Assembly: GCA_001780275.1 (NCBI GenBank)
Contig: MFGB01000020.1
Coordinates: 104,813-168,812, forward strand
DNA: 64,000 nucleotides
Direction: 5' to 3'
DNA from: Candidatus Falkowbacteria bacterium RIFOXYA2_FULL_47_19
GTDB taxonomy: Bacteria > Patescibacteriota > Patescibacteriia > Patescibacteriales > UBA12075
Shown here: positions 5,949-50,968 of the stretch, piece after piece
Position numbering within the stretch: position 1 is the stretch's first letter
How the letters are laid out: every line of letters begins with the position of its first letter
The notes under the pieces: generated by a model
The model's input: the letters and a program-made list of their open reading frames with translations, nothing else
Databases searched by the model: none
What the model was told of the DNA's origin: nothing
Translations under genes and position numbers: made by a program

Positions 5949-7397
5949 CTAGAAACTTCCAAGCCCCGTATATTCCTGGATAAGATAAACCGCTTTTTTT
6001 AAACCGCTTTCATCTTTATAAGCGTCATAACCGACCGTATAGTATGATCCGTTGTCGTTATTCCAGATCTTCTCGAAATAACTTTTTATTTCGCGCATAA
6101 GATCGGTGTCTGTCTTTGCCGTAACCTCGATATCCGCCTCAAGATTATAATTTTCAAGATTCCTTCTAGTAAGATTTGCCGACCCCAATATCACGGTTGA
6201 AAGTCCATTCGCTTTTTCGATCAGGGTCATCTTCGCGTGGAACTGTTCTTTATGCGTATCGTACCAGCGGACCTTTAAAAATCCGCCTGATTTTTTTATA
6301 AGTTCGGCCGCTACCGGCTGGTTGGGAACGCCGATCTTCTTATATCCGAAAGCATCCTTGTTGGGGTCCAATATCACGCGGACATCAGCGTTTCTTTTCG
6401 CCGCGGATATAAGAGCTTTAATTATCTTCCGGTCCGCCAAATAGAACTGGGCTATCATTATTCGATCGCCTTGCCCGGCGTCATTAATGCGCCTAAGAAG
6501 CTCTTCCTTTATGGCTTTTTCTGTCAAAAATAGCGCCTTGACCCGTTCTTCGTTGCCCTCGGTCCGGGTTTCCGCCTCCGGCTTGCCGATTGATAGTTTT
6601 CCGTCCGAAAGATCCGCTACGGCCGCTTCGGTCGCGAAAACGTCCGGCCAGATGCCGCCTTTTATGGCCATCGCCACGTTCGAGTGAGCGGAACTGCCGT
6701 CGTGAGGATTTGCCGAAGCGATGATCACGGCCATTTCTTCGCCGGAATCAGCCGCGAATACTTTCCGGTGATTGGCTTTAAAATTAAACATCTCCAGATA
6801 GCTTCTCGCGGTTACCTTGTCGCCGGAACGCGCGAAAGGATGCGGAAGCAGGCCTCGTTCAGAATTACCGAACCACCGGAAGAAAGTCCGCCAAAACGGG
6901 GAATAAAACGGATTGCTGTCGCGCAAGGGTTTTAAATCCGTTACAATGACATTTACGCCGATTTTTTTCAACCCTTCGATTTCCTCGCTTCTGGCGCCGC
7001 CGTAAACCGTGTTGATCGGATCCGTAAGGAAATCGATCTTTATATCCGGTAAAGATCGCTTCTTTTCTATGAGCTTATCAGCCATCTCCGAAGAGAGCCG
7101 CCGATAGGCGGGTTCAGTGCCGGTCAGATAGGAATTAAAGAGAAACGCGTCGATCAGTATATATCGTTTTGCGTCATCGATCAGTTTAAAGATCGAATCG
7201 AATATTTCCTGTTCATATATGATCTCACCGTTAAGATCTTCATAAGTGAGGTCAAAAAGAAAATCTATGCTGTCGACCGGCACGCCCCTTTCCTCGCCCT
7301 TATGCGCCAGACCGGCGGGCAGATCTTTTAACACATGGAATAATCCGACGCCGGTAAACCAGATAATTGCCACTAATATTATTTTGACGATCTTCAT
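5949..7397 (-). CDS. Phospholipase D / cardiolipin synthase-like protein (two HKD motifs), N-terminal TM anchor
   Basis: HRKVFAAD...ASANPHDGS and HAKMTLIEK...GSANLTRRN HKD motifs. Confidence 0.75.
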   Translation of the reverse strand: MKIVKIILVAIIWFTGVGLFHVLKDLPAGLAHKGEERGVPVDSIDFLFDLTYEDLNGEIIYEQEIFDSIFKLIDDAKRYILIDAFLFNSYLTGTEPAYRRLSSEMADKLIEKKRSLPDIKIDFLTDPINTVYGGARSEEIEGLKKIGVNVIVTDLKPLRDSNPFYSPFWRTFFRWFGNSERGLLPHPFARSGDKVTARSYLEMFNFKANHRKVFAADSGEEMAVIIASANPHDGSSAHSNVAMAIKGGIWPDVFATEAAVADLSDGKLSIGKPEAETRTEGNEERVKALFLTEKAIKEELLRRINDAGQGDRIMIAQFYLADRKIIKALISAAKRNADVRVILDPNKDAFGYKKIGVPNQPVAAELIKKSGGFLKVRWYDTHKEQFHAKMTLIEKANGLSTVILGSANLTRRNLENYNLEADIEVTAKTDTDLMREIKSYFEKIWNNDNGSYYTVGYDAYKDESGLKKAVYLIQEYTGLGSF

Positions 7398-19826: not shown

Positions 19827-20147
19827 ATGAAATTAAAGGTTGTGGCAATTATAATTGAAGATGTCGGTATGTGCGATGTCATGCCAAGATTTCAGCTCAA
19901 AATGGAATCATCCAAACAAAAACCTCCGATTTTATTTCAGCCCATGGGCGATAAATTTATTGATGCGCATGACACCCTCAACAAACTGGATATGTGTCTA
20001 AAACACCGAAAACACAAATTAACTATTGGTATGGAGTGGGGCGCAACAAAACCATCTTATCAGCTACACTGCAATTATTGTGGTTTTAATTTAATTGTAA
20101 AAAAAACAGACGAGACATTTCCGTCTTCACACGAACATAGATTTTAA
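19827..20147 (+). CDS. Hypothetical protein (AT-rich, Cys/His-containing)
   Basis: AGGAG RBS and a terminator at 20163-20197. No family recognised. Confidence 0.45.
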   Translation: MKLKVVAIIIEDVGMCDVMPRFQLKMESSKQKPPILFQPMGDKFIDAHDTLNKLDMCLKHRKHKLTIGMEWGATKPSYQLHCNYCGFNLIVKKTDETFPSSHEHRF

Positions 20148-20197: not shown

Positions 20198-20316
20198 GAA
20201 AATATTTTAATACCATCTTATAATTTCTTTAATTATGGGTTTGGAATACTTGGGTTCACAAACAAAAACACTGCCCTAGGTTGCGGTGTTTTTATTTTTA
20301 TCAAAAATACGGCGGG

Positions 20317-20373
20317 AATAAAAACACCCCGCTTATGAGTCAGCACGTTTTTTGTGCTTTCTCACAAGCGGGG
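20317..20373 (-). terminator. Terminator after the GC-rich gene
   Basis: Stem CCCCGCTT/AAGCGGGG (20327-34 / 20366-73) with an inner hairpin, followed by TGTTTTTATT in minus orientation. Confidence 0.6.
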
Positions 20374-20387
20374 GAAAGTTGTTACTG

Positions 20388-21194
20388 TTAGGCGGTGGCG
20401 GCCAGACGCTCCGCCCGTAGCCTTTTGGATATGGCCGGCGTCCGCCGGAGCAGGTCGGCAAATTCTACTTCGCCGTAGATGGCCCGGCCGAGTCGGATCC
20501 AATCCGGCTCATCCTCGTACACCTCCTCTGCCTTGGCATTATAGCGGAGAAAACGCTCGGCCTGCACCGAAATCTTAGGTACACAACCGCACCACTCTCG
20601 AATCCGGCGGCAAAGTGCCGGAACAAAGGAGTGAAGAAAAGCCGTGCCGTCATTGTCGGCCGTTTGGTGGTACAGGGCGATCAGGCCGTCCAAACCGAAA
20701 ATATCACGGTTGCGGGTCAGCGACTTCTCGACGTACACCTTGGCGGCGAGCATCATCAGCCGCGCCTTTTCCGGCTCATCGAAACGATCGGGGTCGCAAC
20801 CAACCGTCAGGAGAAGCTCGCGGGCGGCCCGACGAATGGCGTTTGGCCCGAGCTCCTTTGCGGTGTAGTCGGTGATAAGATCATCATCCCAATCATCATC
20901 TGGCACTATGCCTACGGCCCATTCCTCGAACGGAACCCAGCGCTTTCCCCGATACTCCGACGGGGAGCCGTAGGCGCGTTCATCCGGGTCCAGGCAATCT
21001 TCGGGCCAGTTATCAATGCTGCCGATGGCGGTGTGTAGTGGAACAATTCCGAGGTATTCGTCGGAGAGTCGGCAACCACAATCATCCTCCCCCCCCATAG
21101 TGCCCTGAAAGTCTTTCTCTTCGATCACAGCTTTTTCCCAGGGAAATTTTACCCTGGCGGACCTGACATTGGGTTTGCGTAAATAACGAGCCAT
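20388..21194 (-). CDS. Hypothetical acidic protein encoded by a strikingly GC-rich gene (likely horizontally acquired)
   Basis: 268-aa ORF with a GGGGGG RBS. Sampled stretches are roughly 60% GC against roughly 30-35% in the flanks. The spurious antisense ORFs here are a typical symptom of high GC. Confidence 0.6.
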   Translation of the reverse strand: MARYLRKPNVRSARVKFPWEKAVIEEKDFQGTMGGEDDCGCRLSDEYLGIVPLHTAIGSIDNWPEDCLDPDERAYGSPSEYRGKRWVPFEEWAVGIVPDDDWDDDLITDYTAKELGPNAIRRAARELLLTVGCDPDRFDEPEKARLMMLAAKVYVEKSLTRNRDIFGLDGLIALYHQTADNDGTAFLHSFVPALCRRIREWCGCVPKISVQAERFLRYNAKAEEVYEDEPDWIRLGRAIYGEVEFADLLRRTPAISKRLRAERLAATA

Positions 21195-44698: not shown

Positions 44699-44834
44699 AT
44701 TTATTAAATTAAGAATTATTATGTAAAATCAATTTTACGTCTTCTTAAGTCAGTCGGCGGGATTGAGCCGCTTATTGCGGCGTTATATGGTGTAAAAAAT
44801 ACGTATATTTCGTACAACAGCTTCGGGATATCTG

Positions 44835-44899
44835 AAATTCAGTTGGCGTAATCTGCTAAAATTGTGCGAACGCACTAGCAGATTATGGAAACTGAATTT
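44835..44899. repeat. Long imperfect hairpin in the spacer downstream of the 44928 gene
   Basis: AAATTCAGTT/AACTGAATTT (44835-44 / 44890-99), ATCTGCTA/TAGCAGAT (44851-58 / 44876-83), GTGCG-AA-CGCAC (44864-75). Confidence 0.7.
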
Positions 44900-44927
44900 G
44901 GGAAAGCGATCGTCAAAAATAAAATAT

Positions 44928-45476
44928 TTAATCTTTGATCTCGTATTCCCAGCCAGCTCGCCATTTTTTTGCTTTACGCCAATCTTCCTCGATAGCCGTC
45001 TCCCAGGTTTTGTCTCTAAGAACAACATCTAAAGCTAGTTGCGGTGCTTGATGGGCGACGATGGCAACGCGTTTTCCGTTATAATTAATTTTTAAATATT
45101 CACAAAACTCTCTAATACGATTTTCAACATCTTTATAGCTTTCACCGTTTGGAAAAGGAGTATCAACATAGTCATTCATTTTGTTTTTAAAAACTTTCGC
45201 TTCTTTTTGCGTATAGTCGCCATAATTTACTTCTCTGAGTCTTTTGTCGCGAATTATTTCATATTTGTCGCCAAAGGCAAGTTCGGCGGAATTAATGGCG
45301 CGTTGTAAATCGGAACAAAAGACGATGTCATATGCCTGCTTCGCAACTAGCTGTCCAAGGTTTTTGGCCTGCTGTTTTCCTATCTCGGATAATTCACCCG
45401 GTGCCCAACCAGTTGCTAGGTCATGTTCGTTGTCGGTAGTGGTGCCGTGGACAAAGTATGTGATTTTAACACTCAT
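44928..45476 (-). CDS. Histidine phosphatase (phosphoglycerate-mutase-like) family protein
   Basis: MSVKITYFVHGTTTDN (RHG-like motif) and later AIVAHQAPQ. I chose the ATG at 45476. The track ORF starts at a TTG at 45491. Confidence 0.6.
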   Translation of the reverse strand: MSVKITYFVHGTTTDNEHDLATGWAPGELSEIGKQQAKNLGQLVAKQAYDIVFCSDLQRAINSAELAFGDKYEIIRDKRLREVNYGDYTQKEAKVFKNKMNDYVDTPFPNGESYKDVENRIREFCEYLKINYNGKRVAIVAHQAPQLALDVVLRDKTWETAIEEDWRKAKKWRAGWEYEIKD

Positions 45477-45660
45477 AAGATTAGAGATCAAATATTTTAT
45501 TAAGTTCGCTGACCAGATACGCCGTGTTGTATGTAGTAAATTTTTTATCTTTTTGCAGTAGTATTAAATCTTGTCTACTAGTAGAGAAATTTGATTTTTT
45601 GTTTTAAAAAAATAAAAGAGGGGATGTGAAGGGGATGAATTCTTTTTTCAAAACTCCTTA

Positions 45661-46167
45661 TTATTTATTTTTTATCCATTTCTTCGTTTCCTGATAGCTT
45701 ATTTTACACCGAACTTTAAAGTCATCATCTGAAATATGCAAAGCAATATCGTTATTGTAAGTGTTTAAAAAAATATCGTGATCATTTATTATCTTATCTA
45801 TAATTTTTAAAGATTCCAAATAATCTTTTGACTTATAAAGACGTGTCAAAAATTCCTTGCTTAAGTCAATGCTAATTATAAAATAGCGGTACTCATTTAA
45901 AGTCAACTGCTTTTTAAATTCTTCCCATTCTCTGTCTACGCTTAGGTCACAAATAAAAGAAACTCCATTTTCCATAATTTCTTTCAATCTTTCATTACGC
46001 CTTTTAACGTGTTCGTTAGAATCAAATATTCCTAAATCTTCTGTAACTTCGCTACGAATAGCGTCATTGTTAAAAACTGGTAGATTCAGTTTTGTGCTTA
46101 AATAATTTGTAATGGGTGTTTTGGAGCTACCAACAGCTCCTGCAAAAGTAATACAAATTTTATTCAT
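45661..46167 (-). CDS. P-loop kinase/NTPase-like protein (AAA_33/zeta-toxin-like fold)
   Basis: Walker A FAGAVGSSKT near the N-terminus, 168 aa. Confidence 0.45.
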   Translation of the reverse strand: MNKICITFAGAVGSSKTPITNYLSTKLNLPVFNNDAIRSEVTEDLGIFDSNEHVKRRNERLKEIMENGVSFICDLSVDREWEEFKKQLTLNEYRYFIISIDLSKEFLTRLYKSKDYLESLKIIDKIINDHDIFLNTYNNDIALHISDDDFKVRCKISYQETKKWIKNK

Positions 46168-46291
46168 AAATTTAAATTTAATTTGGAGCGAAGCGACTTC
46201 AACTTTCCCCTTTAAATTATTTAAAAAACAAAACTTTCGGTCGTGACTAAATCGTCAAACCTTGAATTCAAGAAAGATAAAAATTTATTTC

Positions 46292-46391
46292 GTCTAACGG
46301 CTTCGGGATAAGCGAAGTCCTGAGAAGTGAAGTGAATCGGGATTTGGGAAAATGCCGAGCCGAGGCATTTTCCGGTTATCACTTGTTAAGC
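46292..46391. repeat. Structured spacer segment bounded by integron-core-like heptamers GTCTAAC ... GTTAAGC
   Basis: GTCTAAC (46292-98) fits RYYYAAC and GTTAAGC (46385-91) fits GTTRRRY. The enclosed imperfect hairpin pairs AAGTGA..GGAAAATGCC with GGCATTTTCC..TCACTT (46330-84) and has a bulge. A side hairpin (46299-320) makes it non-canonical for attC. Confidence 0.3.
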
Positions 46392-46470
46392 GAGGGCTCG
46401 GCTGAATTCTTTATTATTGAGAAGAGTCTGACGTAAGCGCAGCGTCCGTATGAGTTTTTGAAAATAACAT

Positions 46471-46944
46471 TTATAATTTTTGGCTATTTAAATACTCAAA
46501 GAATTCTTTACCCCAAGCCAGAATAATTCCATTCTCTTTAAGAACTTTTAGTGATTTATTTTTGAACTTCAAATAATCATTAAGAAATTTTGCGGCAATG
46601 TCTGGCCAAATATCTCCAATAACACAATCATACTTTTTATCTTCGTCGATATTAAAAAAATCACCAATTATTAATTCGCCAAAAATTTGGCCGGACATTG
46701 CTTTCATTTTTTCTATAACCTCAGGATATTTTTCTACAGTCGTGACAGATTTTACTTTTGGATTTTTTAGCAGGTACTCGGGAAGTAAGCCCAGGCCATA
46801 TCCTGCAACCAAAACATCGCCACATGCACCATCGGCCAATTCTTGCTGAAGCTCTTTTTCTTGCGGAGTGTCCCACATCCAAAGATAGTCATCCAGATAC
46901 ATAAATCTGTGTCCTTTGTGCTGCAAAATTTCTATTTGGGCCAT
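46471..46944 (-). CDS. Class I SAM-dependent methyltransferase / spermidine-synthase-like fold protein
   Basis: VLVAGYGLGLL (GxGxG-like), VEKYPEVI, VIGDIW. Confidence 0.45.
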   Translation of the reverse strand: MAQIEILQHKGHRFMYLDDYLWMWDTPQEKELQQELADGACGDVLVAGYGLGLLPEYLLKNPKVKSVTTVEKYPEVIEKMKAMSGQIFGELIIGDFFNIDEDKKYDCVIGDIWPDIAAKFLNDYLKFKNKSLKVLKENGIILAWGKEFFEYLNSQKL

Positions 46945-47125
46945 AAAATAAATGTTATCTTAAAAATTTCGTATCTTTTAGTTGTGTCTGAAGTTTCTGT
47001 TCCTCTTCTTTTAAAAATTAATAATGAAAAAAGGAATAGAAATTTGGGTCGGAATCCGCCTTGGGCGGATTGAGCCGCTAATCGCGATGTTAGATGATGT
47101 TGGTGTGCGGTCGTGAATATTGCAA

Positions 47126-47506
47126 TTATTTGTTATCTAGATAATCAATTACTTTATCAAGTATCGTATTGCACTTATCAATTTCTTCCCGAGTCGTGAA
47201 TTTACCTTCGCTAAAGCCAAATTTAAATTTTAAAAACTCTTTTACGTCTTTTTTTAATGACTCATCACGGATCATGCCGTCCATTAAAGCACTTTCAAGA
47301 TCGTACTTTAAACCAGAGATGTAATTACCTTGGCACTTGAACATATTGTAACGTGGGTCGTTAGAAGGGATAATATTTCTTACATCTTCTTCTGGTAAAT
47401 CATCAAGGTGTTCATCTCGGAGCCAATGGAAACGCTCCTGATACCATTTTTTATCAAAAAGAGTTTCTTTTTCTTTATTTTTTAAATTTGGCTGTTCGTG
47501 TTTCAT
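47126..47506 (-). CDS. Hypothetical protein (126 aa)
   Basis: Clean ORF in the cassette-like array. No family recognised. Confidence 0.4.
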   Translation of the reverse strand: MKHEQPNLKNKEKETLFDKKWYQERFHWLRDEHLDDLPEEDVRNIIPSNDPRYNMFKCQGNYISGLKYDLESALMDGMIRDESLKKDVKEFLKFKFGFSEGKFTTREEIDKCNTILDKVIDYLDNK

Positions 47507-47675
47507 ACAAAGGAATTTGTTTTTATAGTATTAGCACACCAATTTCACATAACATCGGGCTTTAGGGAAGTTTTTTGCGTAGCAAAAATTTGGGAGAGTG
47601 AAGTGCAACAAGCAAACTATTTAAGCCCCGCTAAATAAGGTAAGGACGAAGTCCGAAAGCGCAACGTCACCTGAG

Positions 47676-48203
47676 TTATTTTTCAGCCCCGTAGAATTCA
47701 TCGAAATACTTCTTTATACCTTCAACAAAAGGTGGTGTGTATATGTCAGGATTTTCAATAATATCTTTTTTTAATTCATCTGCATTAATCCATTTAATTT
47801 TTGAAATTTCTCTTGCATCGGGATTGATACCATCATCAGATTTACCAACAAAAACACAATGCCAAGCTTTATCAAATGTGTCAAAAAACGGATATGTAAA
47901 TAATCTTTTTACATTTGTTGAAATTCCAATTTCCTCTTGCATTTCTTTTTGAATACAATCTTCATAAGATTCATTAGCCACAGTTCCACTAACCGAATAT
48001 GTAAAAAGATTTGGGTACCATTTTTTTGTTGGCGCCCTATGTTGCAAGAGAATTTCGTTTTTTGAATTAAAAAGTATTAAATGAGATGAACGATGAATAT
48101 ATTTCCCTGTATAAAAATCATCTCTTGGCCTTAAGCCAATTTGATTATCGTTTTTATCAACTTCGATATTTTGCTCTACCATTTTTAATTTAAATCCTGA
48201 CAT
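47676..48203 (-). CDS. NUDIX hydrolase (isopentenyl-diphosphate-isomerase-like subfamily)
   Basis: Nudix box GTVANESYEDCIQKEMQEEIGI. N-terminal VDKNDNQIG...HRSSHLILFN resembles IDI-type Nudix proteins. Confidence 0.7.
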   Translation of the reverse strand: MSGFKLKMVEQNIEVDKNDNQIGLRPRDDFYTGKYIHRSSHLILFNSKNEILLQHRAPTKKWYPNLFTYSVSGTVANESYEDCIQKEMQEEIGISTNVKRLFTYPFFDTFDKAWHCVFVGKSDDGINPDAREISKIKWINADELKKDIIENPDIYTPPFVEGIKKYFDEFYGAEK

Positions 48204-48229
48204 ATATATAAATTTATTTCACTGAACGA

Positions 48230-48316
48230 CCTGTCCGCCTCTGGCGGAAGGGTTTGCCCGCGGCTGGAGAGCATTATACGAGCACCGACCCGCCATAGGC
48301 GGGGAGGGCGGAGCGA
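48230..48316. repeat. GC-rich repeat R1a (~87 nt), about 90% identical to 48980-49064
   Basis: CCTGTCCGCCTCTGGCGGAAGGG(T/C)TTGCCCGCGGC...GAGCACCGACCCG(C/T)CAT(A/G)GGCGGGGAGGGCGGAGCGA. Confidence 0.85.
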
Positions 48317-48376
48317 TGGCGGAGGAGTAATAAAAAATTTCGCTCCTTATTTATAATTTTGGCAATTTGTTAATAT

Positions 48377-48781
48377 TTAAGAAGAAACATTAATTTTTCC
48401 ACCCTCTATATTATCTATTGTGTTTTCTAATTTTGATTCAGCTTCATCCAGACCACCGAGAATATCGCTAATTTTTTCATTCTCGAAATTAAAGACTGAT
48501 TTTTTATCAGAAATTCCACGAACTGCATTACCCAATTCTTTTCCCCACCCCTGTTCTTCTTTTGGCACAAAATCATCAATGTTGTCTTCGATTTCTTTCC
48601 AGGTTTTATCTTTAATACTTTTACCATGCCTTTTTATTAACATGTTAAAACCCGATTTCATAACTTTAACGTGATCTAAAGTTTTTTTTGCCTCCTTTAA
48701 TGTTTTTTGCTCTTCGGCTATTTTTCGAGAAAAATTTAGCTCTTTTTCGTTTTTTGGTTGAAAAGTTGTTTCTTTTTCCAT
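48377..48781 (-). CDS. Hypothetical protein (134 aa, charged)
   Basis: Clean ORF. Bracketed by an 18/19 inverted repeat (48353-71 / 48801-19). Confidence 0.4.
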   Translation of the reverse strand: MEKETTFQPKNEKELNFSRKIAEEQKTLKEAKKTLDHVKVMKSGFNMLIKRHGKSIKDKTWKEIEDNIDDFVPKEEQGWGKELGNAVRGISDKKSVFNFENEKISDILGGLDEAESKLENTIDNIEGGKINVSS

Positions 48782-48854
48782 AGATTTGTTATTTGTGACA
48801 AATAAATTGCCAAAATTATTAATTAATATAGTGATTTTTTATTATTGCGTATAA

Positions 48855-49120
48855 CGGGCCGCGGGATTTGCGATGCGCGTGGCTCCGCCTCGCAGGCGGG
48901 GACAGGCGTTTCGCATATCCCGAGTAGGGCGTGTTCGCTCCGGCTGCCCGCAGGGCAGGCGAGCGGCAGCGGCGAACAGCCTGTCCGCCTCTGGCGGAAG
49001 GGCTTGCCCGCGGCCGGAGCATTATGCGAGCACCGACCCGTCATGGGCGGGGAGGGCGGAGCGATTTTTTCCGAACCGTGGTAATATCTGAGGTTTTGTC
49101 ACCTCCTTATTGAATTTATT
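48855..49120 (+). ncRNA. Candidate multi-hairpin structured RNA (~265 nt, very GC-rich), contains repeat R1b (48980-49064); class unknown, strand tentative
   Basis: Long-range GGCCGCGGG (48857-65) / CCCGCGGCC (49007-15). Hairpins: GGGATTTGCG/CGCATATCCC (48863-921) with inner CCGCC-TCGCA-GGCGG; GTTCGC..CTGCCC-GCA-GGGCAG..GCGAAC (48933-77); CCGCC-TCT-GGCGG (48985-97); CCCGTC-ATG-GGCGGG (49037-51). A terminator-like GAGGT-TTTGTC-ACCTC plus a T-rich tail (49090-49120) occurs on the plus strand. Confidence 0.35.
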
Positions 49121-49154
49121 TGGTAATAAAATTTGGGTGAATCCGATTAATTAA

Positions 49155-49607
49155 TTATTTTATTATGTTCTCAAGGTTTCCGTTGATAATAATCGGTTTT
49201 AAATCTTCTAACTCGTCAACATAATGCATTCTTTCACTTCGTTCAGGAATTGGATTATAAAGGTATATTGTTTTCTCATGTCCGTAAGCAAAGCCCATTT
49301 CCATTAAAGTGCTACCACCAATGTAATTATCTATACCTTTCTTTTCCATATTCAGAACAAGTATAGCATCAGAATGTTTTATATAATTCCAATATCTTTT
49401 TATCATATCAACAGGCTCAGCGTTCCTAAGTCCAATATCCCCACCTTCTTCCTTGGCTTTGAGATAATCTTCAAATTTTAGTTTGCCGTCAATCATCTTT
49501 TGAGTAAAAAGTGGGATATTAACCGTCCATCCTTTATCCTCCAATTCTTTTTTAAGCTCGATTATCTTCGGGGAGAAATCGACGCTCGAACATATTGTTA
49601 TAGTCAT
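49155..49607 (-). CDS. Nucleoside 2-deoxyribosyltransferase-like (NDT/DUF4406-like) protein
   Basis: MTITICSSVDF...ILVLNMEKKGIDNYIGGSTLMEMGFAYGHEKTIYLYNPIPE resembles the NDT-like Rossmann family. I chose the start at 49607. The longer track ORF (49682) adds an implausible leader that overlaps the upstream gene. Confidence 0.45.
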   Translation of the reverse strand: MTITICSSVDFSPKIIELKKELEDKGWTVNIPLFTQKMIDGKLKFEDYLKAKEEGGDIGLRNAEPVDMIKRYWNYIKHSDAILVLNMEKKGIDNYIGGSTLMEMGFAYGHEKTIYLYNPIPERSERMHYVDELEDLKPIIINGNLENIIK

Positions 49608-49666
49608 ACTAAATAAAAAAATAATAATCTGGCGTAGCCAGTTATGCCGTGATAGGCGAAGTAATA

Positions 49667-49993
49667 TTAACATTTTCCACAAGTGCCCAGACCAGAATTG
49701 TTAGCTTTTTGGCACACCCATCTGAGTATTCCAGAATATCCTTTTTCGGGCTCTACTTCATCTAAAGAGGCAATTGATTTATCTATTGGCAACCCGCTAT
49801 TTTCGCAGATTCCTTTAAATGGATAACGTTTTTTTGCAGAAATCCGTCCTTTGTTTCTGTGTTTGGTCGCAATTACACCAATTCTCTTTGCAACTGCGAC
49901 AGGATTATGCGCAGAAACAATCGCCTCTTTAATTTGCCCCTGAATGCATTCCGTGAGCCCCTTATCGTGTTGGTCAAGTTTTAATGCTGTCAT
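49667..49993 (-). CDS. Hypothetical protein (108 aa, C-terminal Cys cluster)
   Basis: Clean ORF. Its 5' UTR and its stop-codon region form a 17/18-nt inverted repeat (49663-80 / 49994-50010). Confidence 0.4.
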   Translation of the reverse strand: MTALKLDQHDKGLTECIQGQIKEAIVSAHNPVAVAKRIGVIATKHRNKGRISAKKRYPFKGICENSGLPIDKSIASLDEVEPEKGYSGILRWVCQKANNSGLGTCGKC

Positions 49994-50260
49994 GTGGAAA
50001 TGTTAATATTATTTAGCCTATCAAGTTATATGTGAACTTATTGCGGATTGTTTAAAAATTAGTTAAAATATGTTTATTAACTTCTTAGCATAAGGCTTTA
50101 TGCCGGGAAATATTTATATCCGAGCAAGGATTTCGTGTAGAAATTTTTCAGGGAAATGCGGATTCGTAATTTTAGCGGGAAAACCAGTAGGGCCTATTTG
50201 TATTATAACAGGAATTTATAAGTGATTACAATGCTAAAACCCTCGATGTTCAACTGAATT

Positions 50261-50968
50261 ATGCTTAATCTTAAAGAAGAAGAAAACCTGTTCACACTAG
50301 GATATAGATTCGTTGGCGGACTAGACGAAGCCGGACGCGGGCCTTTGGCCGGACCGGTCGTGGCCGCCTGCGTTATTTGTGAACGCGATCATAAAATCAA
50401 CATGGAGACCCTTAAAGACGTAAAAGACTCGAAGAAGCTCACGGAAAAGAAAAGGGAAAAGCTCTTTGGACTTATCCAGGAGAATGTTTTTGAGGTCGGG
50501 GTCGGGGTTTGCGACCAGGATACCATAGACAGAATAAATATATTCCAGGCTTCTCTCTTGGCCATGAAAAAAGCGATCGGCGCGCTTAAAAATAAGCCGG
50601 AATTCATAATGCTTGACGGAAAATTCCCGATTCCAAATATCAGTCTAAAACAAAGAGCGATCATCGGCGGCGATAACCTCGTCTTTTCCATAGCCGCGGC
50701 TTCAATTATCGCAAAAGTAACCCGCGATCGGATCATGCGCACCCACCATGAAGAATATCCGGAATACGGCTTTGATAAGCATAAGGGCTATGGGACAAAA
50801 TTCCACATAGAACAACTGGCAAAACACGGACCCTGCCGTCTCCACCGGAAAAGCTTTGAGCCAATAAGGAAATTCTATAATAATACGGCCAATATTTTAA
50901 AATCCCCCTTAATCCTTGTTAATAATAAAAAAATTAACTATAATAATAATGTAATCAAGGAGAATTAA
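50261..50968 (+). CDS. rnhB: Ribonuclease HII
   Basis: GLDEAGRGPLAGPVVAACV, DSKKLTEKKRE, HKGYGT. Confidence 0.9.
   Translation: MLNLKEEENLFTLGYRFVGGLDEAGRGPLAGPVVAACVICERDHKINMETLKDVKDSKKLTEKKREKLFGLIQENVFEVGVGVCDQDTIDRINIFQASLLAMKKAIGALKNKPEFIMLDGKFPIPNISLKQRAIIGGDNLVFSIAAASIIAKVTRDRIMRTHHEEYPEYGFDKHKGYGTKFHIEQLAKHGPCRLHRKSFEPIRKFYNNTANILKSPLILVNNKKINYNNNVIKEN

What the first reader, a model, noticed from the sequence alone, without database searches (positions are those of the whole stretch)
44740..50260. Cassette-like accessory array: eight small unrelated genes separated by long, structured, motif-sharing spacers (integron/CALIN-like?) with no recombinase in view
SEEN. Between the trxB-side genes and rnhB lie eight short minus-strand genes with unrelated predicted functions: a histidine phosphatase, a P-loop kinase, a SAM-MTase-like protein, an unknown, a NUDIX hydrolase, an unknown, an NDT-like protein and an unknown. 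None has a visible Shine-Dalgarno sequence, although many core genes in this window also lack one. All look more AT-rich than the core genes.

Spacers. Seven of the genes (all but the most upstream, 49667-49993) are each followed by a spacer of roughly 170-370 bp; the exception is 59 bp (49608-49666). Elsewhere in this compact window spacers are mostly under 120 bp. The spacers fold into long imperfect hairpins (44835-44899; 46330-46384) or multi-hairpin GC-rich blocks.

Shared sequence modules:
- GT(A/C)(C/T)AAC(A/G)GCTTCGGGATA at 44812-30 and 46292-310 (16/19 identical).
- A 37-nt module at 44756-92 and 47063-99 (28/37 identical, including 13 contiguous: GGATTGAGCCGCT).
- AAGCGCA(G/A)CGTC at 46435-46 and 47657-68, each just downstream of a stop codon.
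- ATTTGGG at 44896, 46342, 47042, 47588 and 49131.
- CGGTCGTGA at 46238 and 47108.
- An ~85-nt repeat pair, 48230-316 and 48980-49064.

Integron-core-like heptamers. One spacer is bounded by GTCTAAC (46292) and GTTAAGC (46385). A GTTAGAT sits at 47089.

INFERENCE. ORF-plus-structured-site units of unrelated function are the hallmark of integron cassette arrays. Here no intI or attI is visible, most spacers lack a clean RYYYAAC/GTTRRRY pair, and the folds are more complex than a simple attC hairpin. This may therefore be a non-canonical or previously undescribed cassette, recombination-site or ncRNA system. Four of the eight products act on nucleotides or nucleosides. The isolated 9-10-mer matches could be chance; the longer modules are not.
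Basis: partly seen in the sequence, partly recalled or inferred. Interest (0 to 1): 0.8.

Follow-up and report, generated by a model that had tools for sequence, protein, structure and literature searches.

The report
Decayed integron-like cassette array, Patescibacteria
This stretch is a worn-down, integrase-less remnant of a gene-cassette platform that works like an integron but, in intact relatives across the ultra-small Patescibacteria, uses a Xer-type recombinase lacking the domain thought to define integron integrases, and no description of such a system turned up in the literature library I searched.

Summary
Eight unrelated minus-strand genes lie between a Big_14 gene and rnhB in a Candidatus Falkowbacteria MAG, separated by long spacers that share modules.

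The modules are fragments of one widespread element family. More than 120 metagenome loci carry a sharply bounded ~275-nt trailer after unrelated ORFs. It has three parts:
- M1: TAAGGAG plus a covarying hairpin with a C-rich loop.
- M2: an A-rich segment.
- M3: a ~100-nt attC-like imperfect palindrome (R'' ..TAAC, covarying L stem, R' GTTAKNYGAAAT).

M3 sites form same-strand arrays. At the upstream end of such arrays, always divergent, sits a ~270-aa XerA/IntI-like tyrosine recombinase that lacks the IntI-specific domain.

Three results point to integron-type recombination. Near-identical loci differ by whole cassettes with breakpoints at G|TT. Each cassette's 5' end is complementary to the flank of its own R'' (p=6e-7). 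The bottom strand folds better in 125 of 126 sites.

The window keeps one intact site (63 bits), one degenerate site, five R' boxes, an attI-like junction and a 32-codon relic of the recombinase beside rnhB. It is therefore a CALIN-like fossil of a non-canonical integron-like system. Catalysis, the single-stranded substrate and circular intermediates are inferred, not shown.

The parts
50111..50206 (+). Pseudogene relic of the array-associated tyrosine recombinase: N-terminal ~32 codons with an in-frame stop, cut off by rnhB, which starts at 50261
   Evidence: tblastn of the L017 recombinase gives 47% identity over 32 aa, E 1e-3. The translation YLYPSKDFV*KFFREMRIRNFSGKTSRAYLYY compares with L091 IIYPSKDPIQKFKQEMKLRGFSNKTIKSYLYY. 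The same relic is in L011 (E 4e-10). Intact genes occupy this position next to rnhB in L017 and L152.
50035..50046 (-). attI-like junction CCGCAATAAG|TT (G = 50037). This is the proximal end of the variable DNA.
   Evidence: Homology with L011 stops here. All loci with an intact recombinase except L017 (degenerate there) have TCGCATAwnnnnGA|GTTrnnyGAAAT at the equivalent place.
48855..50036 (-). Cassette A. It holds g8 (49667-49993, unknown), g7 (49155-49607, NDT-like), an M1-like TAAGGAG plus hairpin (49089-49109) and a GC-rich site variant: R'' GCATAAT 49021-49027, L'' 49007-49014, L' 48858-48865, R' GTTATAC 48849-48855.
   Evidence: Sequence reading. R' box match GTTATACGCAAT. The GC-rich block folds with z -3.5 to -4.1. 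A 33-nt inverted repeat brackets g8, at 49643-49675 / 49998-50030. A g7 homolog in L087 is followed by M1. Assignment as a site variant rests on inspection only; the covariance model gives no hit.
48227..48854 (-). Cassette B. It holds g6 (48377-48781, unknown), bracketed by a 44-nt inverted repeat (48328-48371 / 48801-48844). It ends in a truncated copy of the GC-rich site (48224-48317) with R' GTTCAGTGAAAT at 48216-48227.
   Evidence: (repeat E 3e-26; inverted repeat E 5e-5).
47553..48226 (-). Cassette C. It holds g5 NUDIX (47676-48203) and a degenerate attC-like site at 47545-47641, with R' GTTATGTGAAAT at 47542-47553.
   Evidence: Pfam NUDIX 8e-15. Covariance model 26.2 bits, E 4e-4. R' box. 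A NUDIX cassette homolog lies between two sites in L060.
46976..47552 (-). Cassette D. It holds g4 (47126-47506, unknown) and a site with an intact 5' half only (R'' CATCTAAC 47089-47096, L'', inner hairpin, CCCAAAT 47042-47048). Its R' is decayed (AGATACGAAAT, 46966-46976).
   Evidence: 34-nt module shared with 44760-44793. The cassette's 5' end GTTATGTGAAATTGGTGTGC pairs with the flank of its own R'' at 16 of 22 positions, against 3-11 for the other cassettes' 5' ends.
46298..46975 (-). Cassette E. It holds g3 (46471-46944, SAM-MTase-like) and the one complete attC-like site, 46290-46396 (R'' GCTTAAC 46385-46391, R' GTTAGAC 46292-46298).
   Evidence: Covariance model 63.2 bits, E 1.9e-13. 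As DNA, the + strand (bottom) folds into a structure closed by the R and L boxes.
44818..46297 (-). Cassette F. In order along the gene strand:
- leader, 46168-46297
- g2, 45661-46167, kinase-like
- M1, 45601-45660
- M2, 45546-45600
- split site, 5' half: R'' CATACAAC 45526-45533 and L'' 45513-45523
- g1 His_Phos_1, 44928-45476, nested inside the split site
- split site, 3' half: CCCAAAT 44896-44902, hairpin 44835-44899, L' 44825-44834, R' GTTGTAC 44812-44818
   Evidence: M1/M2 align with L017 7471-7631 and 4507-4674 and with more than 120 metagenome copies. The two half-site sequences were read; L''/L' match at 8 of 10 positions and R''/R' at 7 of 8. R' box.
44750..44817 (-). Distal end of the array: a truncated 5' half-site (R'' CATATAAC 44782-44789, L'' CGCAATAAGCGG). 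It abuts the conserved promoter region of the Big_14 gene.
   Evidence: 34-nt module. Homology with L011 resumes at about 44750.

Best explanation
The region is a decayed, integrase-less (CALIN-type) remnant of a chromosomal, integron-like gene-cassette platform that is widespread in Patescibacteria.

Intact layout (seen in related loci):
- A ~270-aa XerA/IntI-related tyrosine recombinase gene is transcribed away from a simple attI-like site.
- An array of same-strand cassettes follows.
- A cassette runs from the TT of one R' box to the G of the next.
- Its order is: short leader (GAAAT...), one or two ORFs, then a ~275-nt trailer.

Trailer modules:
- M1: TAAGGAG plus a ~16-bp hairpin with a conserved C-rich 17-nt loop.
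- M2: an A-rich, promoter-like segment.
- M3: a ~100-nt attC-like imperfect palindrome. It has R'' RYMTAAC, a 2-nt spacer, a 10-12-bp covarying L stem, two inner hairpins around CCCAWAT, a 4-6-nt bulge, and R' GTTAKNYGAAAT.

Proposed mechanism: the recombinase cuts and rejoins between G and TT of two sites, most likely with M3 folded as a bottom-strand hairpin. Cassettes are thereby excised as circles and inserted at the attI-like site.

Shown here:
- the array architecture;
- covariation of the site;
- breakpoints at G|TT between near-identical loci;
- complementarity between each cassette's two ends;
- constant association with, and orientation relative to, the recombinase;
- the bottom-strand folding bias.

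Inferred, not shown:
- that this recombinase catalyses the reaction;
- the single-stranded substrate;
- circular intermediates;
- the roles of M1 and M2.

In the window: six cassettes carry eight genes. Only one site is intact and the recombinase is a stub. The array is probably frozen unless a trans-acting copy exists elsewhere in the genome.
For: Hotspot and relic:
- trxB and rnhB are adjacent in L015, L016 and L018. The slot is filled differently in L011, L014 and L017.
- L017 and L152 have the layout array(-)/recombinase(+)/rnhB. The window and L011 have a recombinase relic at that position.

Element family:
- More than 120 loci carry it.
- In subfamily A, 14 loci are 94-100% identical over ~275 nt with unrelated flanks. 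The 3' edge falls at ...GAAACGTTA|.

M3 structure:
- 29 pairs were tested.
- In the L helix, 9 of 12 pairs show compensatory double changes, and 94% of cells are paired.
- The covariation score is 0.327, against 0.120 in shuffles (0 of 500 as high) and 0.05-0.095 in slid controls.

Arrays:
- The covariance model gives 159 hits in 74 loci.
- nhmmer gives 180 sites in 92 loci; 43 loci have 2 or more sites, and none has mixed strands.

Recombinase:
- It is found in 10 array loci (8 independent after removing near-duplicates), always divergent and at the array head.
- In loci fetched independently from recombinase homologs, sites lie on the opposite strand next to the gene: L150 at 86 and 60 bits, L152 at 32 and 21 bits.

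Cassette exchange:
- L051 and L102 diverge right after GTT.
- L047 and L133 diverge after the G.
- L090 and L141 carry a 1.5-kb versus a 444-bp cassette between 99.9%-identical neighbours.

End complementarity: 12.6 of 21 positions pair with the cassette's own 5' end, against 7.7 with the next cassette and 7.5 two sites back (n = 51, Wilcoxon p = 6e-7).

Strand bias: the bottom strand is more stable in 125 of 126 sites.

Cassette content: 141 ORFs fall in 112 Pfam families, with restriction-modification genes, methyltransferases and NUDIX recurring.

Window: 63-bit and 26-bit sites. Five R' boxes, all on the minus strand and all in spacers, make up 5 of the window's 11 matches.
Against: - No intact recombinase lies in the 64-kb window. 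Most window sites are degenerate, split or truncated. Only cassette D shows a specific match between its two ends.
- The recombinase lacks the IntI-specific domain that canonical integrases need to recognise folded attC. Recombination of folded single strands is therefore unproven.
- The full trailer (~275 nt) is much longer than an attC, and M1 and M2 have no assigned role.
- Only 22-27% of sites fit the strict RYYYAAC / GTTRRRY consensus.
- The window and L011 share the same truncated recombinase yet have entirely different arrays. That replacement may have happened by homologous recombination rather than cassette exchange.
- L011's array has no model hits.
- One of three evaluable independent recombinase loci (L153) has no site.
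- The strand-stability comparison used RNA energy parameters.
Confidence: 0.8

Rival explanations
1. The spacers are copies of a non-autonomous transposable repeat (MITE/PATE type, with hairpin ends like IS200/IS605). Such a repeat would insert after genes on its own. The array would then be an ordinary horizontal-transfer hotspot littered with these repeats.
For: The element is sharply bounded and 94-100% identical among loci with unrelated flanks. It has hairpins near both ends and no terminal inverted repeats. Modules are mosaic between loci. L014 has IS200/RAYT-like ORF fragments and palindromic repeats in the same hotspot.
Against: Sites are never in mixed orientation (0 of 43 multi-site loci). 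They cluster in arrays headed by a tyrosine recombinase. No other copy of any spacer module was found elsewhere in the 64-kb window. Differences between near-identical loci are whole ORF+site units, not bare elements. Each cassette's 5' end pairs with its own R'' flank across the ORF, which independent insertion of repeats would not produce. Only L014 showed transposase-like (IS200/RAYT) ORF fragments; the array ORFs scanned with Pfam (top 25 of 112 families listed) include no transposase family, but not every locus ORF was screened.
Confidence: 0.06
2. The modules are RNA-level signals: a terminator hairpin after each gene, a promoter, and a structured 5' leader or processing site for the next gene. 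Genes were gathered by ordinary recombination. The inverted repeats flanking genes would be mRNA 5'-3' closing stems.
For: M1 begins at or right after the stop codon and is a strong hairpin followed by T/A runs. M2 contains extended -10-like motifs such as TGGATAAAT. Gene-flanking inverted repeats abut start and stop codons.
Against: The antisense (bottom) strand of M3 folds better in 125 of 126 sites. Promoter and terminator scans of the window array show no excess over shuffles. Conservation and strain-level breakpoints stop exactly at G|TT. There is a constant link to a recombinase and an attI-like site. No Rfam family matches. This reading is not exclusive: M1 and M2 may well act in transcription alongside DNA recombination at M3.
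Confidence: 0.07
3. A Xer/dif-module-like system. The chromosomal XerA-type dimer-resolution recombinase would act on double-stranded dif-like core sequences at R', as with pdif modules of Acinetobacter plasmids. The long hairpins would be incidental.
For: The recombinase is closest to archaeal XerA structures and lacks the IntI-specific domain. The published 'Cand' subgroup of Xer-related recombinases from candidate phyla is presumed to stand in for Xer (PMC8138268). Genes are flanked by inverted repeats.
Against: Sites are all in one orientation, not alternating as in pdif modules. The L stem covaries with lineage-specific sequences, which means selection for intramolecular pairing rather than for a fixed protein-binding consensus. 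There is a bottom-strand bias. Another XerD-like gene exists in at least one related locus, L019.
Confidence: 0.07

Closest known systems
Sedentary chromosomal integrons and CALINs (clusters of attC sites lacking an integrase), for example the Vibrio superintegron with its VCR repeats
   Same: - The integrase gene is divergent from a same-strand array of small, functionally unrelated cassettes.
- A simple attI-like site lies next to the integrase.
- Cassette-end sites are imperfect palindromes with AAC...GTT outer boxes, an inner covarying stem, an asymmetric bulge and a variable inner structure. Median length is 100 nt.
- The crossover is at G|TT.
- Each cassette's 5' end is complementary to its own inverse core, which is the logic used to map the crossover in classical integrons (my own recollection of Hall et al. 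1991).
- The bottom strand folds better.
- Sites within a lineage are highly similar while the ORFs are unrelated.
- Integrase-less decayed arrays exist, and the window is one.
   Different: - The recombinase lacks the IntI-specific additional domain (I2 helix) and scores below the integron-integrase cut-off.
- The site is the last third of a ~275-nt tripartite trailer (M1-M2-M3).
- The stem extends more than 20 nt beyond the R boxes.
- The strict RYYYAAC/GTTRRRY consensus is met in only about a quarter of sites, and R' carries an extra conserved GAAAT.
- ORFs can sit inside the site's loop (g1).
- The hosts are Patescibacteria, for which I found no integron report in the searched library.
Archaeal XerA and the bacterial Xer-related 'Cand' subgroup of simple tyrosine recombinases (PMC8138268)
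   Same: The best structural-sequence matches are 4a8e and 5hxy (XerA), and NF040815 is matched at or near its cut-off. The protein is ~270-280 aa with SAM-like N-terminal and catalytic domains only.
   Different: Here the gene is consistently placed at the head of cassette arrays, next to an attI-like site, rather than acting (so far as is known) at a single dif site. It is ~80% identical across very different Patescibacteria lineages.
pdif / dif modules of Acinetobacter plasmids (Xer-dependent gene modules; own knowledge)
   Same: Discrete accessory-gene modules are bounded by sites for a Xer-type recombinase, and modules are bracketed by inverted sequences.
   Different: pdif sites are 28-bp double-stranded sites in alternating orientation. 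Here the sites are ~100-nt covarying hairpins, all in one orientation.
Intergenic repeat elements such as ERIC, Correia, REP/BIME and PATEs (own knowledge)
   Same: These are short, structured, highly similar repeats in intergenic regions.
   Different: The elements here are not dispersed, never occur in both orientations, and are always ORF-linked and recombinase-linked.

Membership tests
Integron (canonical) | An integrase of the IntI type, that is a tyrosine recombinase with the IntI-specific additional domain (I2 helix) around patch III | tested here: not met
   The window has only a 32-codon relic. Intact array-linked recombinases score 205-226 bits on TIGR02249 (cut-off 265), in two pieces. 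When aligned to VchIntIA (2a3v), residues 184-235 of IntI4 have no counterpart.
Integron (canonical) | attC sites: imperfect palindromes R''-L''...L'-R' with RYYYAAC / GTTRRRY, 57-141 nt, conserved in structure rather than sequence | tested here: inconclusive
   The architecture and covariation are met and the median length is 100 nt. Only 33 of 124 R'' and 27 of 124 R' fit the strict consensus. The IntegronFinder attC covariance model could not be run.
Integron (canonical) | An array of same-orientation cassettes with unrelated genes, and an integrase divergent from the array next to attI | tested here: met
   0 of 43 multi-site loci have mixed strands. All 10 array loci with a recombinase (8 independent after removing near-duplicates) have it divergent at the array head, and all but L017 show the conserved simple site there. 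Cassette ORFs fall in 112 Pfam families among 141 ORFs. In the window: 8 unrelated genes, a relic and a junction.
Integron (canonical) | Crossover between G and TT of R', so that a cassette's first bases pair with its own inverse core | tested here: met
   Breakpoints in L051/L102, L047/L133 and L090/L141. Own-end complementarity of 12.6 versus 7.7 of 21 positions, p = 6e-7. In the window, cassette D gives 16 of 22.
Integron (canonical) | Recombination of the folded bottom strand of attC | not testable with these tools
   Only indirect evidence is available. The bottom strand is more stable in 125 of 126 sites with RNA parameters. The window site closes fully only on the + (bottom) strand as DNA.
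CALIN (cluster of attC sites lacking an integron integrase) | At least 2 attC sites within a few kb and no integrase nearby | tested here: inconclusive
   The family-specific model gives two hits in the window's array (E 2e-13 and 4e-4). There are also five R' boxes, and the only recombinase is a dead relic. Whether IntegronFinder's generic attC model would call them was not testable.
MITE / PATE (IS200/IS605-derived) repeats | Dispersed copies in either orientation; empty versus filled sites for the element alone; a cognate transposase somewhere | tested here: not met
   No other copy of any spacer module was found elsewhere in the window; a weak lone model hit at 20314-20386 (+) is the only candidate outside the array. 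Orientation is uniform. The units exchanged are ORF plus element.
pdif / dif modules | 28-bp XerC/XerD-type double-stranded sites in alternating orientation flanking each module | tested here: not met
   Sites are ~100-nt hairpins in a single orientation.
Known structured RNA families (Rfam 15) | A match to a curated covariance model | tested here: not met
   There is no match in the array at gathering score or at E up to 10 that is more than noise. There is none on six element-bearing loci.

The most novel reading that the evidence does not exclude
Patescibacteria carry their own widespread class of integron-like platforms. In these, a Xer-type recombinase without the I2 helix exchanges cassettes at long, folded, attC-like sites embedded in a tripartite trailer. 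This would be either a surviving pre-I2 stage of integron evolution or an independent invention of the same solution. It would also be a major route of gene flux (restriction-modification, nucleotide-metabolism and other accessory genes) in these reduced genomes.
Probability: 0.6. Interest if true: 0.9.

Novelty: new variant of a known kind. Interest (0 to 1): 0.8.

Why it matters
Integron integrases are thought to have become able to recombine folded single-stranded attC sites by acquiring the I2 helix (PMC4792948, PMC7790495; the defining domain is discussed in PMC9668308). A natural, widespread system with integron architecture and attC-like hairpins, but a recombinase without that domain, would make the origin of integrons directly testable. 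The question would be whether an I2-less enzyme already recombines hairpins, or whether a different recognition mode evolved.

It would also identify a dedicated gene-capture mechanism in Patescibacteria. These organisms have tiny genomes, and I know of few well-characterised mobile elements in them.

It would explain a class of hypervariable islands next to rnhB/trxB.

It would give annotators a recognisable ~275-nt marker, and a covariance model, for cassette boundaries that present tools are likely to miss or to label as spurious ORFs.

Tried and rejected
- Rfam. Gathering and E-value modes on the window array and on six element-bearing loci gave nothing beyond tRNAs and one rRNA.
- Diversity-generating retroelement reading of the 94-nt repeat pair. 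Rejected on inspection of the repeat alignments: the substitutions are mixed transitions, the repeats are not coding, and there is no reverse transcriptase.
- Small-ORF reading of M1 (SD + ATG). Rejected on inspection of the copies listed, because subfamilies differ in frame and some lack a start codon.
- Naive regex scan for AAC..L''..L'..GTT over long distances. It was useless, giving about 23 chance hits per strand, and was replaced by a covariance model.
- Promoter/terminator consensus scan of the array. No excess over shuffles.
- GTTNNNNGMAAT and CCCAAAT. Neither is enriched window-wide; only their clustering and strand within the array are informative.
- Own-end complementarity in the window. 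It is specific only for cassette D. For cassette F it is confounded by similar leaders.
- Viral contigs. A single hit (L029), so there is no evidence for a phage origin.
- Literature searches for integrons or attC in CPR/Patescibacteria found no description. The library lacks most subscription papers, so absence is not proof.

Full report
**1. Source and observation**

The window is part of contig MFGG01000008.1 of a Candidatus Falkowbacteria MAG (GCA_001778165.1), and the same locus recurs in 22 contigs.

All eight minus-strand ORFs exist:
- Pfam supports His_Phos_1 and NUDIX firmly.
- It supports the kinase-like, SAM-MTase-like and NDT-like calls only weakly.
- Three ORFs have no hit.

Spacers are 169-373 bp, with one of 59 bp.

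Self-comparison confirms the long shared modules. None of them occurs elsewhere in the 64 kb:

| Module | Identity | E-value |
|---|---|---|
| 94-nt GC-rich pair | 90% | 3e-26 |
| 34-nt module | 82% | 4e-3 |
| 25-nt module | 88% | 0.1 |

Rfam gives nothing in the array.

Most array genes are bracketed by their own inverted repeat.
- Same-gene flank scores average 14.2, against 8.2 +/- 1.5 for mismatched flanks (permutation p = 5e-5).
- Five of 8 array genes exceed the window's 99th percentile, against 0 of the 55 other ORFs called in the window.
- The same holds in the equivalent arrays of L011, L014 and L017.

**2. A hotspot with a recombinase**

Loci fetched through rnhB show that trxB and rnhB are directly adjacent in L015, L016 and L018. 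The slot holds 2.7 kb in L014 and 7.6 kb in L017.

The closest relative is L011, whose flanking proteins are 80-99% identical. It has none of the window's eight genes. Its slot holds a HIT protein, a CPBP protease, another NUDIX and several unknowns.

L017 fills the slot with minus-strand Fic, KilA-N, glyoxalase and HigBA genes. It also has a divergent 283-aa tyrosine recombinase right next to rnhB.
- The recombinase matches NF040815 (XerA/integron integrase) above its cut-off.
- It matches TIGR02249 (integron integrase) below its cut-off.
- Against solved structures it is closest to archaeal XerA.
- Aligned to VchIntIA, the 52 residues that include the IntI-specific domain are missing.

The window retains a relic of this gene at 50111-50206 (+), with an in-frame stop, truncated by rnhB. 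L011 has the same relic.

**3. The spacers belong to a widespread element family**

The g2-g1 spacer aligns with two L017 spacers at 71-75% identity. An exact-pattern scan for its first module found one viral-collection contig and more than 120 metagenome loci from groundwater, sediment and sludge.

Fourteen loci of one subfamily are 94-100% identical over ~275 nt, while both flanks are unrelated. The 5' edge is at (A)ATAAGGAG, just after diverse stop codons. The 3' edge is at ...CGCATATACT-GAAAC-GTTA|.

The element has three modules:
- M1: TAAGGAG plus a long hairpin. Its inner stem covaries (ATGGAA/TTCCAT, ATGAAA/TTTCAT, TGGGCA/TGCCCA, AAGGAA/TTCCTT and others). Its 17-nt loop TTCACCCCyrrCCCCTC is conserved.
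- M2: an A-rich, subfamily-specific segment with -10-like motifs.
- M3: an attC-like imperfect palindrome.

The modules are mosaic between loci.

**4. M3 is a structured, attC-like site**

An alignment of 30 diverse sites was scored against a stated four-helix structure.
- 86.5% of cells are paired, against 72% in shuffles.
- The covariation score is 0.327, against 0.120 in shuffles (0 of 500 as high) and 0.05-0.095 in slid controls.
- In the 12-bp L helix, 9 pairs show compensatory double changes.
- AAC/GTT are invariant, while positions beyond GTT pair in only 57-83% of sequences.

Consensus boxes are R'' RYMTAAC and R' GTTAKNYGAAAT. The median length is 100 nt (range 70-152). Only 22-27% of sites fit the strict integron consensus. 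No Rfam family matches.

**5. Arrays, recombinase and attI-like site**

A covariance model finds 159 sites in 74 loci. nhmmer finds 180 sites in 92 loci. All 43 loci with two or more sites have them on one strand, spaced about 0.5-2.5 kb apart.

Homologs of the L017 recombinase occur in 10 of these loci (8 independent after removing near-duplicates). They are always divergent from the array and at its upstream end. In all but L017, a conserved simple site TCGCATAwnnnnGA|GTTrnnyGAAAT lies between gene and array.

The recombinase family is large. More than 5,245 proteins score E <= 1e-30, and the best 120 are 77-83% identical across several Patescibacteria lineages. They are annotated only as XerD or tyrosine recombinase.

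Loci were then fetched independently from recombinase homologs.
- They again show small divergent genes upstream, with rnhB (L152) or grx-trxB (L150) downstream.
- Model hits lie on the opposite strand in L150 (86 and 60 bits) and L152 (32 and 21 bits).
- L153 has none.

**6. Evidence for cassette-wise recombination at G|TT**

Near-identical loci differ by whole units:
- L051 and L102 diverge immediately after ...GAAACGTT.
- L047 and L133 diverge after ...AAACG.
- L090 carries a 1.5-kb cassette where L141 has a 444-bp one, between 99.9%-identical neighbours. The breakpoints fall within about 12 nt downstream of the GTT of one R' box and, on the other side, between L' and R'.

A test in the spirit of the classical crossover mapping used 51 non-redundant cassettes. 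It scored the 21 positions upstream of each R''.
- They pair with the flank following the previous site's R', which is the cassette's own 5' end, at 12.6 of 21 positions.
- They pair at only 7.7 with the site's own downstream flank and 7.5 two sites back (Wilcoxon p = 6e-7).

This is what is expected if each unit from TT... to ...G was once closed on itself. It also explains the gene-flanking inverted repeats where leaders and trailers are short.

The bottom strand of M3 folds more stably than the ORF-sense strand in 125 of 126 sites. This parallels attC and argues against a sense-RNA role.

Cassette ORFs (141) fall in 112 Pfam families. DNA methylases, restriction enzymes, radical-SAM and SAM methyltransferases and NUDIX recur. 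Homologs of g5 and g7 are cassettes in other arrays.

**7. Reading the window with this key**

The model hits 46290-46396 (63 bits, E 2e-13) and 47545-47641 (26 bits, E 4e-4).

R' boxes of the form GTTNNNNGMAAT occur five times in the array. All are on the minus strand and in spacers. They make up 5 of the 11 matches in the whole window.

|---|---|
| 19-25-nt module | L'-bulge-R' end of M3 |
| 37-nt module | R''-L''-inner hairpin |
| ATTTGGG | CCCAAAT junction |
| AAGCGCAGCGTC | Recurs in GC-rich parts of related trailers |
| 85-94-nt pair | GC-rich site variant and its truncated copy; both copies end at a GTT |

g1 lies inside a split site. Its R''-L'' half is at 45513-45533 and its CCCAAAT-hairpin-L'-R' half is at 44812-44902.

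I propose six cassettes, A to F, listed with coordinates in the parts section, plus a truncated terminal half-site.

Only cassette D shows specific complementarity between its two ends (16 of 22 positions). Only one site is intact. As DNA it closes fully on the + (bottom) strand. The array is therefore a degraded, integrase-less derivative.

**8. Limits**

- Catalysis by this recombinase, a single-stranded substrate, circular intermediates and the functions of M1 and M2 are all inferred.
- The recombinase fails the defining IntI test.
- The window and L011 share the truncated recombinase yet differ in every cassette. Whole-island replacement by homologous recombination cannot be excluded for that pair.
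- L011's array has no model hits.
- Assignment of the GC-rich block as a site variant rests on inspection only.
- Literature searches found no prior description of integron-like arrays in Patescibacteria. The library is incomplete.

**9. Verdict**

The interpretation as a non-canonical integron/CALIN-like array is supported. The system is a new variant of a known kind. Interest is high because it couples integron architecture to an I2-less Xer-type recombinase.

Noticed in passing
window 20314-20386 (+): A lone attC-like hairpin (AAAAAC-AC-CCCGCTTATGAG...CTCACAAGCGGGG-GAAA-GTTGTTA) scores 19.6 bits (E 0.02) with the site model. It lies between the convergent genes 19827-20147 and 20388-21194, so it may simply be a bidirectional terminator.
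   Followed up: no
window 48845-49084 (+): The GC-rich site block carries several spurious ORFs. One of them is annotated as a 79-aa gene in the GenBank assembly (L001 8585-8824).
   Followed up: partly
L014 4135-4164, 6430-6460, 6702-6732 and ORFs 6100-6700: In another MAG, the same trxB|rnhB hotspot holds IS200/RAYT-like ORF fragments and near-perfect 30-nt palindromic repeats. This is a different kind of filler in the same slot.
   Followed up: no
proteins P0001-P0120; loci L150, L152, L153: The ~270-aa recombinase is 77-83% identical across MAGs labelled Vogelbacteria, Spechtbacterales, Gracilibacteria, Peregrinibacteria and Paceibacterota. That is unusually high for such distant hosts. 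It sits next to rnhB or grx-trxB, so the platform is syntenic.
   Followed up: partly
L141 1930-2373 versus L090 3804-5305: A 444-bp 'cassette' consists almost entirely of a site with a long inner region and only one short ORF (89 aa, 2015-2281, lying inside the site). Together with g1 nested in a split site in the window, this suggests that ORFs can reside inside the hairpin loop.
   Followed up: partly
L029 (IMG/VR UViG_3300001335_000566) 1212-1495: One complete element follows an 845-aa ORF on a 71-kb contig classified as viral. This could be a misclassified Patescibacteria fragment or a phage carrying a cassette.
   Followed up: no
L058 5202-5436 and 5924-6653: A complete element lies about 500 nt upstream of a 23S rRNA gene.
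   Followed up: no
window 50202-50231 (-): A strong promoter-like site (TTGTAA-18-TG-TATAAT) on the array strand lies inside the recombinase relic. It recalls the Pc promoter inside intI1 of class 1 integrons. This is a consensus match only.
   Followed up: no
L001 5401-5715 versus L002 5401-5907 (= window g2 region): g2 is annotated as 104 aa in the GenBank MAG but as 168 aa in other assemblies of the same locus. This could be a different gene call or a sequence variant.
   Followed up: no
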